A stretch of 64,000 nucleotides of DNA from an uncultured Spirochaetota bacterium (GTDB taxonomy: Bacteria > Spirochaetota > Spirochaetia > SZUA-6 > Fen-1364): NCBI GenBank assembly GCA_963845535.1, contig CAWJSK010000001.1:37396-101395 (forward strand), read 5' to 3'. Both the position numbers and the translations under genes were made by a program. Positions 46,317 to 51,308 of the stretch are shown here, one piece after another. Within the stretch, counting starts at the first letter, position 1, and the number at the start of each line of letters is the position of its first letter. The notes under the pieces are model-generated. The model searched no databases, had not been told where the DNA came from, and saw only the letters and a list, made by a program, of their open reading frames with translations.

Positions 46317-47703
46317 TCATTTCGGCGCGCGGCCTTTGGCAGCCTTTCGCGGCCCGCGGCCTCGTCCCCTGCCCCGGCTGCCGGCCGTCTTCGACCCCGC
46401 CTTGCGTTGCACAAGGCGTATCTCGAGGCGCGTGCTCGCAACTTCGCGCAAGCGCCGCATGCCTTCGGATTCGTCAATACGCCGGGTGATGGCTTCCCCT
46501 CCCTCCACCACGGCGTCCCTGAACTTGCGCAGCGCCTCCGCCATGGTGACCTTTTTCTTCGGTTTCCTGTTTTTCACGAGGCTGTAGAGGAACCTGCAGA
46601 TCTCCTCCGCCCCGGCGTGCAGCTTCAGCTTATTGATGTTGCGCTGGTACTCGGAAATGATGTCGGGCCTGATCAGCGAGCTTCGCGAGGCGCGTGGCAA
46701 GCTGACTTGGCGTGCGCGTGAGCCATCCGACCCGGTTGCCGATGACCCAGTTCGTGGTCTCCTTCTCATTCGCGAGGAAGCTCGAGATGATGAGGGGCCT
46801 GCCTTGGACGAGGGTCTCGAACACCTGGTTGGGCCCGGATTTTCCCACCACGACGTCCGCAGCGGCAATGAAGTCCGCAAGGTTGTTCACGTATCCCTGG
46901 ACCGCAATGCGCACGGGGCCTGTCGGGCCCGCCGCAAGAACCTCCAGGTCCCTCAGCAGCCGCACGTTCTTTCCGCAGACCACGACCACCTGGAGGGAGA
47001 GCTTCCGCTCGATGAGAATTGCTATGTACTTCTTGACGGGCCCCACCCCTTCGGCTCCGAAAAAGAAAAGAGCCGTGAAGGGTTTCGTCTCGAGCTTGAG
47101 CCTTCGTCTGAGTGTCGCCTTGCTTTCCTTTCGGCGGGCGAAGGACGGTTTGATGGGGAACTGGAACTCCTTCAGCCTGCTCGCCAGAATCCCTTTCTGG
47201 GCAATCTCCTCACGCGATTTTCGGGAGAACACGAGGCTCCAGTCGAAGTTGGGCGAAAACCAGATGTAGTGCGAATCGAAAGGTTCGGGGTTCAGCACCA
47301 CCGCGATGGCATCGAGCTGGCCAACCGTCTTGAGGAGCTCCAGGTAGTGCGTGAAAGTGAAATAGGTGGAGACGACAAGATCCGGCTTCTCATGCTCCAG
47401 GTACTGGACGAAACGCGGAAGGATGGTGATCCCCAGGATCCGGTCGATGATCTTGACCATGAACGGGTTGTCAGCGCCGCGGTAGAACGCGTTGATGAGC
47501 GGGGGATAGCGCAGCGCGCTGTTCCAGTAGAATCGATATATGTAGCGGAGAAAATTGGCTCCCAAAGCCAGCCCAAGGTTCACAACGTGGACTTCGAGGT
47601 CCTTGTACCCCAGGAGGTCGAACTGCTCTTTTATCGCCATGGCCGGGGCGATATGCCCGCCCCCGATGTCAATGGTGTACAGATCGATACGCTTCATCGC
47701 CAT
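46317..47703 (-). pseudogene. MGDG-synthase-like glycosyltransferase (GT28 family), reading frame broken near the C-terminus
   Basis: 46630..47703 gives MAMKRIDLYTIDIGGGHIAPAMAIKE... and GKSGPNQVFETLVQGRPLII. After ...QLATRLAKLA that frame decays (DQARHHFRVPAQHQ*), whereas the frame of ORF 46317..46880 continues plausibly (LIRPDIISEYQRNINKLKLHAGAEEICRFLYSL). That frame then stays open through a basic tail down to 46317. Confidence 0.65.
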
Positions 47704-47838
47704 GCGGCCAAAAGCTTAGCCCCCGTGCCGAAAACATGTCAACGTTCAATTTGGAAGCATAGGCGGCCGATGCGCTACGCCTCTCTTGCCGCCGGCCTCC
47801 TGCGCTCGGACTTCCCTGTCCCCTCCTTGTCCGCTCAC

Positions 47839-47869
47839 TTGACGAGGGGACGCTTTTTCCCGATAGTAT
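47839..47869 (+). promoter_or_regulatory. candidate promoter of the thrS leader (TTGACG, then GATAGT at 17 nt or TAGTAT at 19 nt)
   Basis: Hexamers read directly from the sequence, about 350 nt upstream of thrS. Confidence 0.35.
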
Positions 47870-47874
47870 CGAAA

Positions 47875-48211
47875 AGGCTTTGACGGAGACGAGTAAGCGG
47901 AAGCTCCGGTCGGCAGAGAGGGCGCCCTATGGCTGAAAGGCGCTTGGCCGTCTGCTGCTGAAAACCCCTCCCGAGCCGCGTTCCCAAAGACCCGGGTAGC
48001 CGGGCTCGAGTAGGATCCGCCGGATGACCCCGTGAAAGGTCGAAGAGAGGCCCGCGCTTCCATAGCGCAGTTTTGCAGCGTTATGACAGCGCCGGCAATC
48101 AAGGTGGAACCGCGGAGAGCCCCTTGCGGCTTTTCGTCCTTGGCGACGCGGACGGATGTCCACGCCAGACTATGGACGAGGCAGCCGTGAGGGGCTTCGT
48201 TTTTTCGGAGG
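47875..48211 (+). promoter_or_regulatory. T-box leader RNA (threonine-specific) upstream of thrS
   Basis: The T-box core AATCAAGGTGGAACCGCG at 48097-48114 matches the remembered consensus AAnnnGGGUGGUACCGCG. Stem I-like elements are GAGTA (47891-47895), an AGAGA bulge (47915-47919), an apical helix GGGCGCC/GGCGCTT, and GAAAACCCC (47960-47968) carrying an ACC Thr codon. A T6 run (48200-48205) lies just before the SD. Confidence 0.65.
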
Positions 48212-48217
48212 CAGAGC

Positions 48218-49960
48218 ATGCAGGACGTTCGACAGGACCATTTGTTCAGGGTGCGCCACTCGTTTTCCCACGTGATGGCGGAGGCAGTGCGTGAGCTTTT
48301 TCCTGACGCAAAGCTCGCTATTGGGCCGGCCATCGATGACGGCTTCTACTACGATTTCGACCTCCCCCGCGCGCTTACCGGGGAGGACCTCGCTGTCCTG
48401 GAAGAGAAGATGCGGGCCATCGTGGCCGGCAAGCACCCTTTCACGAAGAAGGTGATCTCCCGCGCGGAGGCCAGGAAGCTTTTCGGCGGGCAGCCATACA
48501 AGCTCGAGCTCATTGAGGAGCTTCCCGAAGGGGAGGAGATCTCCACCTATACGCAGGACACTTTCACGGACCTCTGCCGGGGTCCTCACGTGGAGAATAC
48601 CACTGAACTGCGGCCGGACGCCTTCAAGCTCACGACGATTGCCGGCGCTTACTGGCGCGGGGATGAGAAGAACAAGATGCTGCAGCGCATCTACGGCACG
48701 GCGTGGGATTCGAAGGCGGAGCTGGCCGAGCATCTGAAAAAGCTGGAAGAGATCGAGAAGAGGGACCACCGGCGGCTGGGTCGGGAGCTGGATCTCTTCT
48801 CCGTGCATGAAGAAGCCGGCGCGGGTCTCATCTACTGGCACCCCAAGGGCGCGCGGGTGCGCCTTGCAATAGAAGATTTCTGGCGCAGCGAACATTTGAA
48901 AAACGGCTATGAGCTTCTCTATACGCCGCACATCGGCAAGTCATGGCTCTGGGAGACGTCGGGGCACCTCGGGTTCTACAAGCAGAACATGTACGCGCCG
49001 CTTTCCATAGACGACGTTGACTACTACATCAAGCCGATGAACTGTCCGTTCCACCTCATGATCTACAAGAACCAGCAACGGTCGTACCGCGACCTTCCGC
49101 TGCGGTGGGCTGAGCTGGGAACGGTGTACCGCTACGAGCGCTCCGGCGTGCTGCATGGTCTTCTTCGCGTTCGGGGATTCACCCAGGATGATGCGCACAT
49201 CATCTGCACCCCCGAGCAGATCGATGATGAGATCCTGGAAGTGCTCAGGTTCTCTCTCAAGATCTGGAAGGCGTTCGGCTTCACCGACATCAAGGCGTAC
49301 CTTGCCACAAAGCCCGCTGACGGGATTGGTGACGACGCGACGTGGGAAAAAGCCATCGCCGTCCTGAAGCGTGCCGCTGAGAAGGAGAACCTCGACGTCG
49401 TGATGGACGAAGGGGGAGGGGCGTTTTACGGCCCCAAGATCGACCTCAAGATCAAGGATGCTCTGGGCCGCGAGTGGCAGATGACGACGATCCAGTTCGA
49501 CTGGAACGAGCCGGAACGGTTCGGGATCACCTACGTTGCCTCGGACAACACGCAGAAACGGCCGTTCATGGTCCATAGGGCGCTCCTTGGCTCGCTGGAG
49601 AGGTTCTTCGGCGTGCTGGTGGAGCATTACGGCGGCGCGTTCCCGGCATGGCTTGCTCCGGTGCAGGTCATGGCAATTCCGGTGGCGCCCGGGTTCGCCC
49701 CGTACGCCCAGGAGGTGGTGAAGACGCTTCAGAGGCACGGAGTGCGGGCTGAGGTGGACGCGGGTGACGAGCGGATGAACGCAAAGATCCGCAAGGCCCA
49801 GAACCAGAAGATACCGTTCATGCTCATCCTCGGAGAGAAGGAGCAGACGGGAAAGGCCGTTTCCGTGCGCGCCCGCTCGGGAGAGCAGAAGAACCTGATT
49901 CCTCTTGCGGACTTCCTTGCCCAGATCATTGAAGAGGTAAAGCCGAAAACCCTGGATTAG
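48218..49960 (+). CDS. thrS: threonine--tRNA ligase (short form without N-terminal TGS domain)
   Basis: Editing-domain motif RHSFSHVMAEAV, AGAYWRGDEKNKMLQRIYG, and class II motifs FYKQNMY, YRYERSG and GGGAFYGPKID. At 580 aa it starts at the N2 editing domain. Confidence 0.95.
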   Translation: MQDVRQDHLFRVRHSFSHVMAEAVRELFPDAKLAIGPAIDDGFYYDFDLPRALTGEDLAVLEEKMRAIVAGKHPFTKKVISRAEARKLFGGQPYKLELIEELPEGEEISTYTQDTFTDLCRGPHVENTTELRPDAFKLTTIAGAYWRGDEKNKMLQRIYGTAWDSKAELAEHLKKLEEIEKRDHRRLGRELDLFSVHEEAGAGLIYWHPKGARVRLAIEDFWRSEHLKNGYELLYTPHIGKSWLWETSGHLGFYKQNMYAPLSIDDVDYYIKPMNCPFHLMIYKNQQRSYRDLPLRWAELGTVYRYERSGVLHGLLRVRGFTQDDAHIICTPEQIDDEILEVLRFSLKIWKAFGFTDIKAYLATKPADGIGDDATWEKAIAVLKRAAEKENLDVVMDEGGGAFYGPKIDLKIKDALGREWQMTTIQFDWNEPERFGITYVASDNTQKRPFMVHRALLGSLERFFGVLVEHYGGAFPAWLAPVQVMAIPVAPGFAPYAQEVVKTLQRHGVRAEVDAGDERMNAKIRKAQNQKIPFMLILGEKEQTGKAVSVRARSGEQKNLIPLADFLAQIIEEVKPKTLD

Positions 49961-49976: not shown

Positions 49977-51308
49977 ATGGCCGACATGATCATCAAACGG
50001 GACGGCCGTGCCGTCCCGTTCGACAAGGAAAAGATCACCTCCGCCGTCTACCGCGCGGCCGTCGCCTGCGGCGGAAAGGACAGGAAGGAGTCTGAACGAA
50101 TCACGGAGAACGTGCTGGCCATGCTTTCTGCCCGCCGGGAGGCGCGCACCTTCCCCACGGTGGAGGAAGTCCAGGACCTCGTGGAGAAGGCGCTCATCGA
50201 GCGCGGACACGCCCGAACGGCCAAAGCCTACATCGTTTACCGCTATGAGCACGCCCTCAAGCGCGCGGGACGAGAAAGCCTCACGTACTCGTCGGAGAAC
50301 ATCCCCTACCGCAAGCTTTGGGAGGCGCTGAGCTGGGCAATCGATCAGGGGTGCGTGAGCCTGTCCGAGCTTTCCGCGCTGATCGACGCTGGCAGGTACC
50401 GCGACCTGGTGGGAGCCTCCGACGCGTTTTATGAGCGTGAGCTTGCCTATGCCGCTCAGAGGATCCTGGATCGACGGGAGGAGCTTCGCGTTGTCATCAT
50501 TGCAGGCCCATCCTCCTCGGGGAAAACAACCACGACAATCAGTATCCGGGAGAAGCTGGCCGCCGCGGGGATCGCAACCGTCCCCCTGACGGTAGACAAC
50601 TACTTCTTCGACCTGGAAGACCACCCGAAGATCGGCGGGGATGACTACGATTTCGAGACCCCCCAAGCCCTCGACCTCGCGTTGATCGACGCCCACGTGG
50701 GCGCGCTCGTGGCCGGGGAGCCAGTGGAGGTGCCGCTGTACAACTTCAAGACCGGCCGGCGGGAGGGGACATCCGGGGTTCTTCGCCTGGGAGGGAATGA
50801 GATCCTCCTCATCGATTCGCTGCACGGTCTTTTCCCCGAGATGACACGGGGCGTCGGGGAGGAAAAGAAGTTCCGGCTGTACACCGAGACGCTTTCCCAG
50901 GTCAGGGATCGGGAGGGCCGCTATGTGCGGTGGGCGGACGTGCGAATGCTCCGCAGGGTCGTGCGGGATTCCCAGTTTCGCAATTACACCCATTGGCAGA
51001 CCGTCCGTCACTGGCACCTCGTGCGCCGCGCCGAGCTGCGCTACATCGTTCCGCAGCTTCGCAGGGCCCACGTGATCGTCAACAGTTATCTTCCCTATGA
51101 ATTGCCGATCATGAAAGCGAGGGTCGGTCCGAGCCTTCCCGCGCTCATCGAGGAGTTCTCGAAGGACCCCGCGCGGCAGGACGCCCATGAGCGCGCCGTC
51201 CGGGTGAAGGCGCTTTTCGACCAGATCCCCGCGGTGGAAGATGAAAGCCTGGTTCCGCCGAGCTCGCTTCTGCGCGAGTTCATAGGCGGAAGCATTCTCC
51301 CGTACTGA
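49977..51308 (+). CDS. ATP-cone domain fused to a uridine-kinase/PRK-like P-loop kinase
   Basis: MIIKRDGRAVPFDKEKITSAVYRA is an ATP-cone sequence. IIAGPSSSGKTTT is a P-loop, followed by DNYF and IDSLHG as in the Udk/PRK family. The start may be the ATG at 49986. Confidence 0.78.
   Translation: MADMIIKRDGRAVPFDKEKITSAVYRAAVACGGKDRKESERITENVLAMLSARREARTFPTVEEVQDLVEKALIERGHARTAKAYIVYRYEHALKRAGRESLTYSSENIPYRKLWEALSWAIDQGCVSLSELSALIDAGRYRDLVGASDAFYERELAYAAQRILDRREELRVVIIAGPSSSGKTTTTISIREKLAAAGIATVPLTVDNYFFDLEDHPKIGGDDYDFETPQALDLALIDAHVGALVAGEPVEVPLYNFKTGRREGTSGVLRLGGNEILLIDSLHGLFPEMTRGVGEEKKFRLYTETLSQVRDREGRYVRWADVRMLRRVVRDSQFRNYTHWQTVRHWHLVRRAELRYIVPQLRRAHVIVNSYLPYELPIMKARVGPSLPALIEEFSKDPARQDAHERAVRVKALFDQIPAVEDESLVPPSSLLREFIGGSILPY

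What the first reader, a model, noticed from the sequence alone, without database searches (positions are those of the whole stretch)
47839..48217. T-box leader with a threonine (ACC) specifier in front of thrS
The 514-nt gap upstream of thrS contains AATCAAGGTGGAACCGCG (48097-48114), a close match to the T-box core as I remember it. The UGGA would read the NCCA end of a tRNA with U73. Upstream there is a Stem I-like arrangement: GAGTA (47891-47895), helix CGGC/GCCG, an AGAGA bulge (47915-47919), and the apical helix GGGCGCC/GGCGCTT with loop CTATGGCTGAAA. The descending strand is GAAAACCCC-TCCCGAGCC (47960 onward). This parallels the glyQS arrangement GAA-codon-A-CUUCGAGC and places ACC (47964-47966) as the specifier. 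A possible antiterminator is CAAGG/CCTTG (48100-04 with 48138-42) plus CCGC/GCGG. A T6 run (48200-48205) sits immediately before the SD GGAGG (48207-48211). T-boxes are mainly a Firmicutes device and are patchy elsewhere, so one in a genome with a spirochaete-like 16S would be taxonomically notable if confirmed. By eye I cannot decide whether the expression platform is a terminator (AGCCCCT at 48118-24 can pair with AGGGGCT at 48190-96 before the T run) or an SD sequestrator.
Basis: partly seen in the sequence, partly recalled or inferred. Interest (0 to 1): 0.6.

Follow-up and report, generated by a model that had tools for sequence, protein, structure and literature searches.

The report
Threonine T-box riboswitch before spirochaete thrS
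The leader of this spirochaete's only threonyl-tRNA synthetase gene is a complete T-box riboswitch that should read uncharged tRNA-Thr and release a transcription stop: a well-known mechanism, but in a phylum the T-box surveys I could read do not list.

Summary
Confirmed. Window 47871-48144 matches the Rfam T-box model RF00230 end to end. It scores 85.3 bits (E 4e-19), just under the curated cut-off of 93, so default annotation misses it.

All class I parts are present:
- a sigma-70-like promoter;
- a long Stem I with K-turn, specifier loop, AG bulge and distal loop;
- Stem II and the IIA/B pseudoknot;
- Stem III;
- the T-box core with a UGGAACC bulge;
- a 15-bp antiterminator and a mutually exclusive 26-bp terminator with U6, ending 1 nt before the SD of thrS.

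The specifier is ACC (Thr), not AAC. In about 45 thrS leaders ACC never changes, while both flanking bases vary. The genome has tRNA-Thr(GGU) with U73, which pairs with the A of UGGA.

Stem I, terminator and antiterminator all show compensatory changes across relatives. The leader precedes thrS in every family genome that has the gene. It also occurs in a second family of the order and patchily elsewhere (at least 20 of 401 Spirochaetota genomes sampled, 13 of 21 loci before thrS). The ThrRS tree argues for vertical descent within Spirochaetia, not recent transfer from Chloroflexota.

Verdict: a new member of a known kind. The mechanism is inferred, not assayed. Five congeners lack the Stem I tRNA-elbow platform.

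The parts
47839..47867 (+). Sigma-70-like promoter: -35 TTGACG (47839-44), 17-nt spacer, -10 GATAGT (47862-67). The leader should start about 6-8 nt downstream.
   Evidence: It is the only promoter-like site in 47650-48300, against 0.1 expected from shuffles. TTGAC[A/G]-17/18-GATA[G/C]T is kept at the same place in relatives (read).
47871..48144 (+). T-box leader as matched by Rfam RF00230 (Stem I through antiterminator).
   Evidence: 85.3 bits, E 4e-19, model positions 1-219 of 219. It is the only T-box hit in the 4.55-Mb assembly.
47876..47977 (+). Stem I. Basal helix GGCU/AGCC (47876-79 with 47974-77). K-turn GA motif (UUGAC 47880-84 opposite CG 47972-73). Helix GGAG/CUCC (47885-88 with 47968-71). 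Helix AGCGG/CUGCU (47896-900 with 47955-59). Helix CGGUC/GGCCG (47907-11 with 47946-50). AG bulge GGCAGAGA (47912-19). Helix GGGCGCC/GGCGCUU (47920-26 with 47939-45). Distal loop CUAUGGCUGAAA (47927-38).
   Evidence: On alignment A2 (17 relatives) the 25 pairs are 94.1% paired and 16 show changes on both sides. No shuffle of 500 reaches this, and slid controls give 35-49% paired. The 64 nt between AGUA and GAA is the commonest spacing among about 45 thrS T-boxes.
47960..47967 (+). 3' side of the specifier loop, GAA-A-ACC-C. The specifier codon ACC (Thr) is at 47964-66. The 5' side is ACGAGUA (47889-95), carrying the AGUA S-turn motif.
   Evidence: All thrS-linked leaders read GAA-N-ACC-N followed by the helix. 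The N before ACC is A, G or C. The N after is A, C, G or U. ACC pairs with anticodon GGU, and the tRNA-Thr(GGU) gene is present at C19:337048-337121.
47978..48020 (+). Stem II. Lower helix GCG-U-UCC / GGA-UC-CGC. S-turn-like CAAAG and GAGUA strands. Upper helix CCCGG/CCGGG (47991-95 with 48000-04) with loop GUAG.
   Evidence: Aligned to the Stem II positions of RF00230, including the AGUAGG motif. GAAAG...AGUA is kept in relatives. The helix register is my own reading.
48021..48041 (+). Stem IIA/B pseudoknot. IIA is CGG/CCG (48021-23 with 48030-32). Loop AUGACC. F-box-like CCGUGA. IIB is GACC (48026-29) pairing with GGUC (48038-41).
   Evidence: The same CGG-loop-CCG-UGARA-IIB layout is found in 19 of 20 leaders searched. 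The IIB pair covaries: GACC/GGUC, GACCC/GGGUC, GCUC/GAGC, GCCC/GGGC, GCCCG/CGGGC, CCCU/AGGG. Single sequences are not significant against shuffles.
48050..48096 (+). Stem III, long and internally branched: GCCCGCG...CGCCGGC. It is preceded by the purine string GAAGAGAG (48042-49).
   Evidence: CM alignment. Its length is highly variable among relatives. The purine string before Stem III fits the RRRxG motif described in PMC7583486.
48097..48114 (+). T-box core AAUCAAGGUGGAACCGCG. The bulge UGGAACC is at 48105-11. UGGA (48105-08) is complementary to the U73-C-C-A end of tRNA-Thr.
   Evidence: It is invariant in 21 family sequences. tRNA-Thr CGU, UGU and GGU all have U73, and CCA is not encoded.
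48100..48142 (+). Antiterminator. Helix A1 is CAAGG/CCUUG (48100-04 with 48138-42). Helix A2 is GCGGAGAGCC/GGCUUUUCGU (48112-21 with 48128-37). They are separated by the 7-nt bulge.
   Evidence: The MFE of 48097-48145 is exactly this fold, at -19 kcal/mol. The 15 pairs are 99.7% paired in 21 sequences, and 3 show changes on both sides.
48112..48205 (+). Intrinsic terminator. The 5' arm is 48112-14 plus 48117-39 and re-uses the antiterminator's loop and 3' strand. The 3' arm is 48174-81 plus 48183-200. It is followed by the U tract UUUUUU, whose first U (48200) pairs at the stem base (48200-05).
   Evidence: MFE -58.2 kcal/mol, z -4.3. The 26 pairs are 93.7% paired, and 8 show compensatory change. 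No shuffle of 500 reaches this, and slid controls give 41-53%.
48207..49960 (+). SD GGAGG (48207-11), ATG at 48218, and thrS (580 aa, no TGS domain). It is the only ThrRS gene in the assembly.
   Evidence: Pfam tRNA-synt_2b, HGTP_anticodon and tRNA_SAD. tblastn of the genome finds a single full-length copy.

Best explanation
This is a class I (transcription-attenuation) T-box riboswitch specific for tRNA-Thr. It controls the organism's single thrS gene and probably the ATP-cone/uridine-kinase gene 17 nt downstream.

Proposed mechanism:
1. Transcription starts from the TTGACG-17-GATAGT promoter.
2. Stem I presents ACC in its specifier loop to the GGU anticodon of tRNA-Thr. Its AG bulge and distal loop would stack on the tRNA elbow, and Stem II with the IIA/B pseudoknot would support the codon-anticodon duplex.
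3. If the tRNA is uncharged, its free U73-C-C-A end pairs with UGGA in the 7-nt bulge. This stabilises the weak antiterminator (-19 kcal/mol), and RNA polymerase reads through into thrS.
4. If the tRNA is charged, the far more stable terminator (-58 kcal/mol over 48090-48206) takes over the antiterminator's loop and 3' strand. Transcription then stops at the U6 tract.

Shown here: the sequence and structure match, the covariation, the cognate tRNA and its U73, and the conservation and gene linkage. Inferred from the family's established mechanism: tRNA binding, sensing of the charged state, and termination itself.
For: - Model match: RF00230 full-length hit, 85.3 bits, E 4e-19.
- Target gene: thrS lies directly downstream and is the only copy in the genome.
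- Specifier: ACC is invariant across about 45 thrS leaders from several phyla, while both neighbouring bases vary.
- Cognate tRNA: tRNA-Thr(GGU) is present, and U73 is complementary to UGGA.
- Stem I covariation: 16 of 25 pairs compensatory, 0 of 500 shuffles.
- Terminator covariation: 8 of 26 pairs compensatory, 0 of 500 shuffles.
- Antiterminator: 99.7% paired and folds as predicted.
- Energetics: terminator -58.2 kcal/mol, z -4.3, followed by U6.
- Promoter found at the expected place.
- Linkage: all 23 hits in relatives sit 5' of thrS. Three more family genomes missed by the filters also carry the leader.
- In family f8 the same switch ends in a textbook terminator (GGCUUUUUAUUUU) about 60-90 nt before the SD. 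This shows termination, not SD masking, is the family's mode there.
Against: - The score is below Rfam's gathering threshold (85.3 against 93).
- The base 3' of the specifier is C (47967), where T-boxes usually have a purine. It is A in most relatives.
- In many congeners the U tract is degenerate (UUUGUCGUAU, UUUGUCAUUU) and the SD follows at once, so termination efficiency is uncertain there.
- There is no expression or biochemical evidence.
- In 8 of 15 other spirochaete genomes the bulge reads UGGU although tRNA-Thr has U73. The bulge-discriminator pairing rule is therefore not strictly kept in the phylum, though it is kept in this clade.
Confidence: 0.9

Rival explanations
1. It is a T-box that acts mainly on translation, like the class II ileS leaders of Actinobacteria. 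The long helix next to the SD would block 30S binding rather than stop RNA polymerase.
For: The helix ends 6 nt before the SD in this genus. Many congeners have a poor U tract directly followed by GGAGG. Five congeners have a shortened Stem I of the kind otherwise linked to translational T-boxes (PMC7583486 section 6.2).
Against: GGAGG (48207-11) is not paired in the helix in any of 21 aligned sequences. The window has a clean U6 immediately after a 26-bp stem. Family f8 leaders have a classical terminator far from the SD. In L155, L171 and L020 the SD lies tens of nt beyond the helix.
Confidence: 0.06
2. The specifier is AAC (Asn) in the strict GAA-plus-codon register, so the leader senses tRNA-Asn.
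For: In glyQS-type leaders the codon follows GAA directly, and the window reads GAA-AAC-C.
Against: Relatives read GAACACC (L013) and GAAGACC (L023, L111). The triplet after GAA is therefore not conserved, whereas ACC is invariant. The Rfam consensus loop also has GAA-N-codon-A. The gene controlled is thrS. No tRNA-Asn gene was found in the 85%-complete assembly, so that side could not be checked.
Confidence: 0.01
3. The T-box-thrS unit was recently acquired by horizontal transfer from Chloroflexota (Anaerolineae) or Firmicutes. This is a rival about origin only.
For: Anaerolineae thrS genes of the same TGS-less type also carry ACC/UGGA T-boxes. T-boxes are patchy in Spirochaetota. Families f2-f7 of the same order have the orthologous thrS without the T-box core motif or a specifier loop (the model scan found nothing either, but it also missed known leaders).
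Against: In the ThrRS tree all spirochaete T-box thrS genes fall in one all-Spirochaetia clade of 37 rows (SH-aLRT 97). This clade is grouped in an unresolved fork with the T-box-less Leptospirales, and Anaerolineae sit in a separate clade. The tree is a quick LG+G4 search, and rows L104-L122 were chosen for having a T-box.
Confidence: 0.15

Closest known systems
Bacillus subtilis thrS and thrZ T-box leaders (Rfam RF00230, class I transcriptional T-box)
   Same: They control the same target gene. They share the Thr specifier (ACC in the Bacillus leaders, from my own knowledge of the literature) and the same domain order: Stem I with K-turn, specifier loop, AG bulge and distal loop, then Stem II, the IIA/B pseudoknot, Stem III, the T-box bulge, and competing antiterminator and terminator.
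   Different: The host is a spirochaete. The bulge reads UGGA, matching U73. The base after the specifier is C, not a purine. Helix A2 of the antiterminator is unusually long (10 bp). The terminator is 26 bp with a branched apical insert, and its U tract abuts the SD. The score falls below the Rfam cut-off.
Anaerolineae (Chloroflexota) thrS T-box leaders, for example Leptolinea tardivitalis (L035)
   Same: They have a TGS-less ThrRS of the same broad clade, a GAAAACC specifier context, a UGGA bulge, and a Stem I of about 64 nt.
   Different: The core lies only 84-98 nt from the start codon, and the sequence following the core differs (GCGUG). ThrRS is about 58-61% identical and sits in a different clade of the tree.
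Actinobacterial ileS T-boxes with intermediate or ultrashort Stem I (class II, translational; Sherwood et al. 2015, as reviewed in PMC7583486)
   Same: This comparison applies only to the five congeners noted in passing. They lack the elbow-binding platform and keep Stem II and the IIA/B pseudoknot.
   Different: The window's own leader has a full-length Stem I. The congeners keep a terminator-like helix that does not include the SD, and their specifier stays in an internal loop.

Membership tests
T-box leader (Rfam RF00230) | Score at or above the curated gathering threshold (93 bits) | tested here: not met
   85.3 bits. The shortfall comes from insertions in Stem II, Stem III and the antiterminator loop. 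The match is full length.
T-box leader (Rfam RF00230) | Statistically significant full-length match to the covariance model | tested here: met
   E 4e-19, model positions 1-219 of 219. E 7.7e-19 on the whole genome.
Class I transcriptional T-box | Stem I with a K-turn base and an internal specifier loop whose codon matches the amino acid of the downstream gene | tested here: met
   ACC at 47964-66 lies in the loop between the covarying helices GGAG/CUCC and AGCGG/CUGCU. The downstream gene is thrS. ACC is invariant in about 45 thrS leaders.
Class I transcriptional T-box | [quoted passage not shown] | tested here: not met
   It is C at 47967. Most relatives have A, but C, G and U also occur.
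Class I transcriptional T-box | Stem I distal AG bulge and distal loop (the tRNA-elbow platform) | tested here: met
   AGAGA (47915-19) is invariant in 17 relatives. The distal loop ...GGCUGAAA aligns to the model's GGUGaaA. The tertiary fold itself was not tested.
Class I transcriptional T-box | Conserved T-box core with a 7-nt bulge whose UGGN is complementary to the NCCA end of the cognate tRNA | tested here: met
   UGGAACC at 48105-11. tRNA-Thr(GGU), and also the CGU and UGU isoacceptors, have U73.
Class I transcriptional T-box | Cognate tRNA with a matching anticodon encoded in the genome | tested here: met
   tRNA-Thr(GGU) at C19:337048-337121.
Class I transcriptional T-box | Mutually exclusive antiterminator and intrinsic terminator (stem plus U tract) | tested here: met
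   The two folds share 48112-14 and 48117-39. Terminator: 93.7% paired, 8 compensatory pairs. Antiterminator: 99.7% paired. U6 at 48200-05.
Class I transcriptional T-box | Stem II with S-turn and the Stem IIA/B pseudoknot | tested here: met
   CM alignment. IIB covaries among relatives in at least 6 pair combinations.
Class I transcriptional T-box | Read-through induced by uncharged, but not charged, cognate tRNA | not testable with these tools
   This needs in vitro antitermination assays or reporter assays.
Class II translational T-box | SD sequence paired in the sequestrator helix | tested here: not met
   GGAGG 48207-11 lies 3' of the helix and of the U tract, and it is unpaired in the MFE fold.

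The most novel reading that the evidence does not exclude
The T-box-thrS unit may be an old, vertically inherited feature of class Spirochaetia that has been lost repeatedly. That would make Spirochaetota a genuine and so far undescribed T-box phylum.

Within this genus there is also a natural experiment. Five species have deleted the whole Stem I elbow platform while keeping the terminator-type expression platform. If those leaders still work by transcription attenuation, the platform is not essential for transcriptional T-boxes, contrary to the current view (PMC7583486 section 6.2).
Probability: 0.35. Interest if true: 0.6.

Novelty: new member of a known kind. Interest (0 to 1): 0.4.

Why it matters
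Three practical points follow.
- T-box control of an aminoacyl-tRNA synthetase operates in spirochaetes. A 2008 survey found none in 6 genomes of the phylum (PMC2494555, Table 3), and I found no later paper describing any.
- These leaders score below the Rfam cut-off or are lost by its filters. Standard annotation therefore under-counts them, and the figure of 5% of sampled genomes is a lower bound.
- The genus offers matched leaders with and without the Stem I platform. This is a ready-made comparison for asking what the tRNA-elbow contact contributes to a co-transcriptional switch.

For the window itself the mechanism is ordinary.

Tried and rejected
- **AAC (Asn) register.** Rejected, because relatives read GAACACC and GAAGACC with ACC invariant.
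- **Covariation between the bulge N and the tRNA discriminator across spirochaetes.** Uninformative. tRNA-Thr(GGU) has U73 in 15 of 15 genomes, while the bulge reads UGGA, UGGU or UGGG. The window's own pair is a Watson-Crick match.
- **Transfer of thrS plus T-box from Anaerolineae.** Not supported by the ThrRS tree.
- **SD sequestration.** No pairing partner for GGAGG exists in the helix.
- **MFE folding of Stem I alone.** Not better than shuffles (z +0.5), so the Stem I structure rests on covariation and not on energy.
- **The simple terminator scanner.** It misses the real terminator because the apical loop is long and branched. It reports only a short hairpin inside the antiterminator.
- **Rfam E-value scan of 13 further loci.** It returned nothing, even for L155, L167 and L171, which plainly carry the leader. 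Absence calls made with the model are therefore weak. For families f2-f7 I relied on the missing core motif as well.
- **Literature.** Searches for T-boxes in spirochaetes returned no relevant paper.

Full report
**Observation**

The default Rfam scan of the window reports only rRNAs and a tRNA. A scan of 47700-48260 without the gathering cut-off gives a full-length match to the T-box model RF00230 at 47871-48144. It scores 85.3 bits, E 4e-19, against a cut-off of 93. The same hit is the only T-box in the 4.55-Mb, 85%-complete assembly.

**Anatomy**

- *Promoter.* A sigma-70-like promoter, TTGACG-17-GATAGT (47839-67), is the only such site in the region. It is kept in relatives.
- *Stem I (47876-47977).* It has a GA/K-turn base, helix GGAG/CUCC, and a specifier loop (ACGAGUA opposite GAAAACCC). 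Above these come three further helices, an AGAGA bulge and a GGCUGAAA distal loop.
- *Stem I support.* On an alignment of 17 relatives, my 25 pairs are 94.1% paired and 16 show changes on both sides. No shuffle of 500 reaches any measure, and slid controls give 35-49%. Energy alone does not single out this fold.
- *Stem II, the IIA/B pseudoknot and Stem III.* Stem II (47978-48020) comes next, then a IIA/B pseudoknot (48021-41). The IIB pairing of the pseudoknot covaries among relatives: GACC/GGUC, GCUC/GAGC, GCCC/GGGC, CCCU/AGGG and others. A purine string and a long Stem III (48050-96) come next.
- *T-box core (48097-114).* It is invariant in 21 family sequences.
- *Antiterminator.* CAAGG/CCUUG plus GCGGAGAGCC/GGCUUUUCGU, around the bulge UGGAACC, is the MFE of 48097-145 at -19 kcal/mol. 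It is 99.7% paired in relatives.
- *Terminator.* It re-uses 48112-14 and 48117-39 as its 5' arm and pairs them with 48174-200. The fold is -58.2 kcal/mol, z -4.3. It is 93.7% paired, with 8 compensatory pairs and 0 of 500 shuffles. U6 (48200-05) follows, and then SD GGAGG (48207-11) and ATG (48218).

**Specificity**

The loop reads GAA-A-ACC-C. About 45 thrS-linked T-boxes were collected from the family, from other Spirochaetia, from Anaerolineae and from one Bacillota MAG. In all of them ACC is invariant. The base before it is A, G or C, and the base after it is A, C, G or U. This excludes the AAC register.

The genome encodes tRNA-Thr(GGU). All three tRNA-Thr genes have U73, which is complementary to the A of UGGA, and CCA is not encoded. 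thrS is single-copy.

**Distribution**

- All 23 T-box hits in 41 related genomes lie directly 5' of thrS.
- Three more family genomes that the filters missed also carry the leader. Every family genome that holds thrS therefore has it.
- A second family of the order (f8) has it too, with a textbook terminator well separated from the SD.
- Families f2-f7 have the orthologous ThrRS (65-73% identity) but no core motif upstream. The model scan was also negative there. That carries little weight, because it missed known positives.
- Across the phylum, 20 of 401 sampled genomes (18 of 153 genera) have a hit. Of the 21 loci outside this genome, 13 precede thrS. The others precede a transporter, a pheS-like gene, trpB, acyl-CoA-synthetase-like genes and an aminotransferase.

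**Origin**

The ThrRS tree is a quick LG+G4 search. It places all spirochaete T-box thrS genes in a single all-Spirochaetia clade (SH-aLRT 97). This clade is grouped with the T-box-less Leptospirales in an unresolved fork. The T-box-bearing Anaerolineae fall in a separate clade. This favours old inheritance with losses over recent transfer. The sampling of rows L104-L122 was biased toward T-box carriers.

**Mechanism**

By homology with characterised class I T-boxes (review PMC7583486), uncharged tRNA-Thr should be held by the ACC-GGU pairing and by the Stem I platform. Its free UCCA end should pair with UGGA and stabilise the antiterminator. Charged tRNA cannot do this, so the much stronger terminator forms. 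The structural prerequisites are shown here. tRNA binding, sensing of the charged state, and termination are inferred.

There are three deviations:
- the score is under the Rfam cut-off;
- C replaces the usual purine after the specifier;
- the U tract abuts the SD and is degenerate in many congeners.

SD sequestration is unlikely, because GGAGG is never inside the helix.

**Comparison and novelty**

The closest known examples are the B. subtilis thrS and thrZ leaders. A 2008 survey found T-boxes in 0 of 6 Spirochaetes genomes (PMC2494555). My literature searches found no description of spirochaete T-boxes. Earlier notes of this scan report similar thrS leaders in other spirochaete genomes. I confirmed the phylum-level pattern independently. 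This is a new member of a known kind.

**Side observation**

Five same-genus genomes have Stem I cut down to a 4-5 bp hairpin directly above the specifier loop. The gap between AGUA and GAA is 12-14 nt instead of 64, and there is no AG bulge or distal loop. All other domains and the terminator-like helix are kept. The review states that the platform is essential for transcriptional T-boxes, so these leaders deserve a test.

**Limits**

The organism cannot be named with these tools beyond Spirochaetota, class Spirochaetia. The nearest named MAGs are labelled Rectinemataceae, Spirochaetaceae or Treponema, at 65-69% ThrRS identity.

Noticed in passing
L014, L017, L018, L021, L022 (same-genus genomes G008, G010, G016, G009, G001), thrS leaders: Stem I is reduced to GAGUA-GGCG(G)-tetraloop-(C)CGCC-GAAAACCA. 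The AG bulge and distal loop (the tRNA-elbow platform) are deleted. Stem II, the IIA/B pseudoknot, the T-box core, the antiterminator and the long terminator-like helix are kept. These are candidate platform-less transcriptional T-boxes.
   Followed up: partly
L108, L109, L110, L112, L116, L118, L120, L122 (UGGU) and L106 (UGGG), compared with tRNA loci L125-L139: In 8 of 15 other spirochaete genomes the thrS T-box bulge reads UGGU, and in one it reads UGGG. Yet tRNA-Thr(GGU) has U73 in all 15. These leaders therefore do not keep the expected Watson-Crick match with the discriminator base.
   Followed up: partly
window 49977-51308 (+): An ATP-cone domain fused to a uridine-kinase/PRK-type P-loop kinase starts 17 nt after the thrS stop codon. 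The thrS-kinase pair is kept in at least 9 related loci, with or without a T-box. The kinase is probably co-transcribed with thrS and so comes under the T-box here.
   Followed up: partly
L004, L007, L010, L012, L008, L011, L020, L023, L155, L171 (Stem I distal loops): Many family leaders carry an extra hairpin of 10-50 nt inserted in the distal loop of Stem I, just 5' of the conserved GG(C/G)UGARA. Stem III length also varies, from about 20 nt to more than 130 nt. These insertions are what push the scores below the Rfam threshold or past its filters.
   Followed up: partly
L105, L107, L113, L114, L121, L123, L124 (other Spirochaetota genomes): T-box hits elsewhere in the phylum precede a sodium:solute-symporter-like gene, a pheS-like gene, trpB, HTH/cupin-acyl-CoA-synthetase-like genes and an aminotransferase. 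Their specifiers were not examined.
   Followed up: no
L039, L041, L085, L091 (Leptospirales and other Spirochaetota MAGs): A tRNA gene, not a T-box, lies a few hundred nt upstream of thrS in these loci. Its anticodon was not determined.
   Followed up: no
L167/L174 (G022, same family): thrS appears split into two overlapping frames (residues 5-162 and 161-579 on adjacent stretches). This is either a frameshift or an assembly error in that MAG. Its T-box leader is intact, and the base after ACC is U.
   Followed up: no
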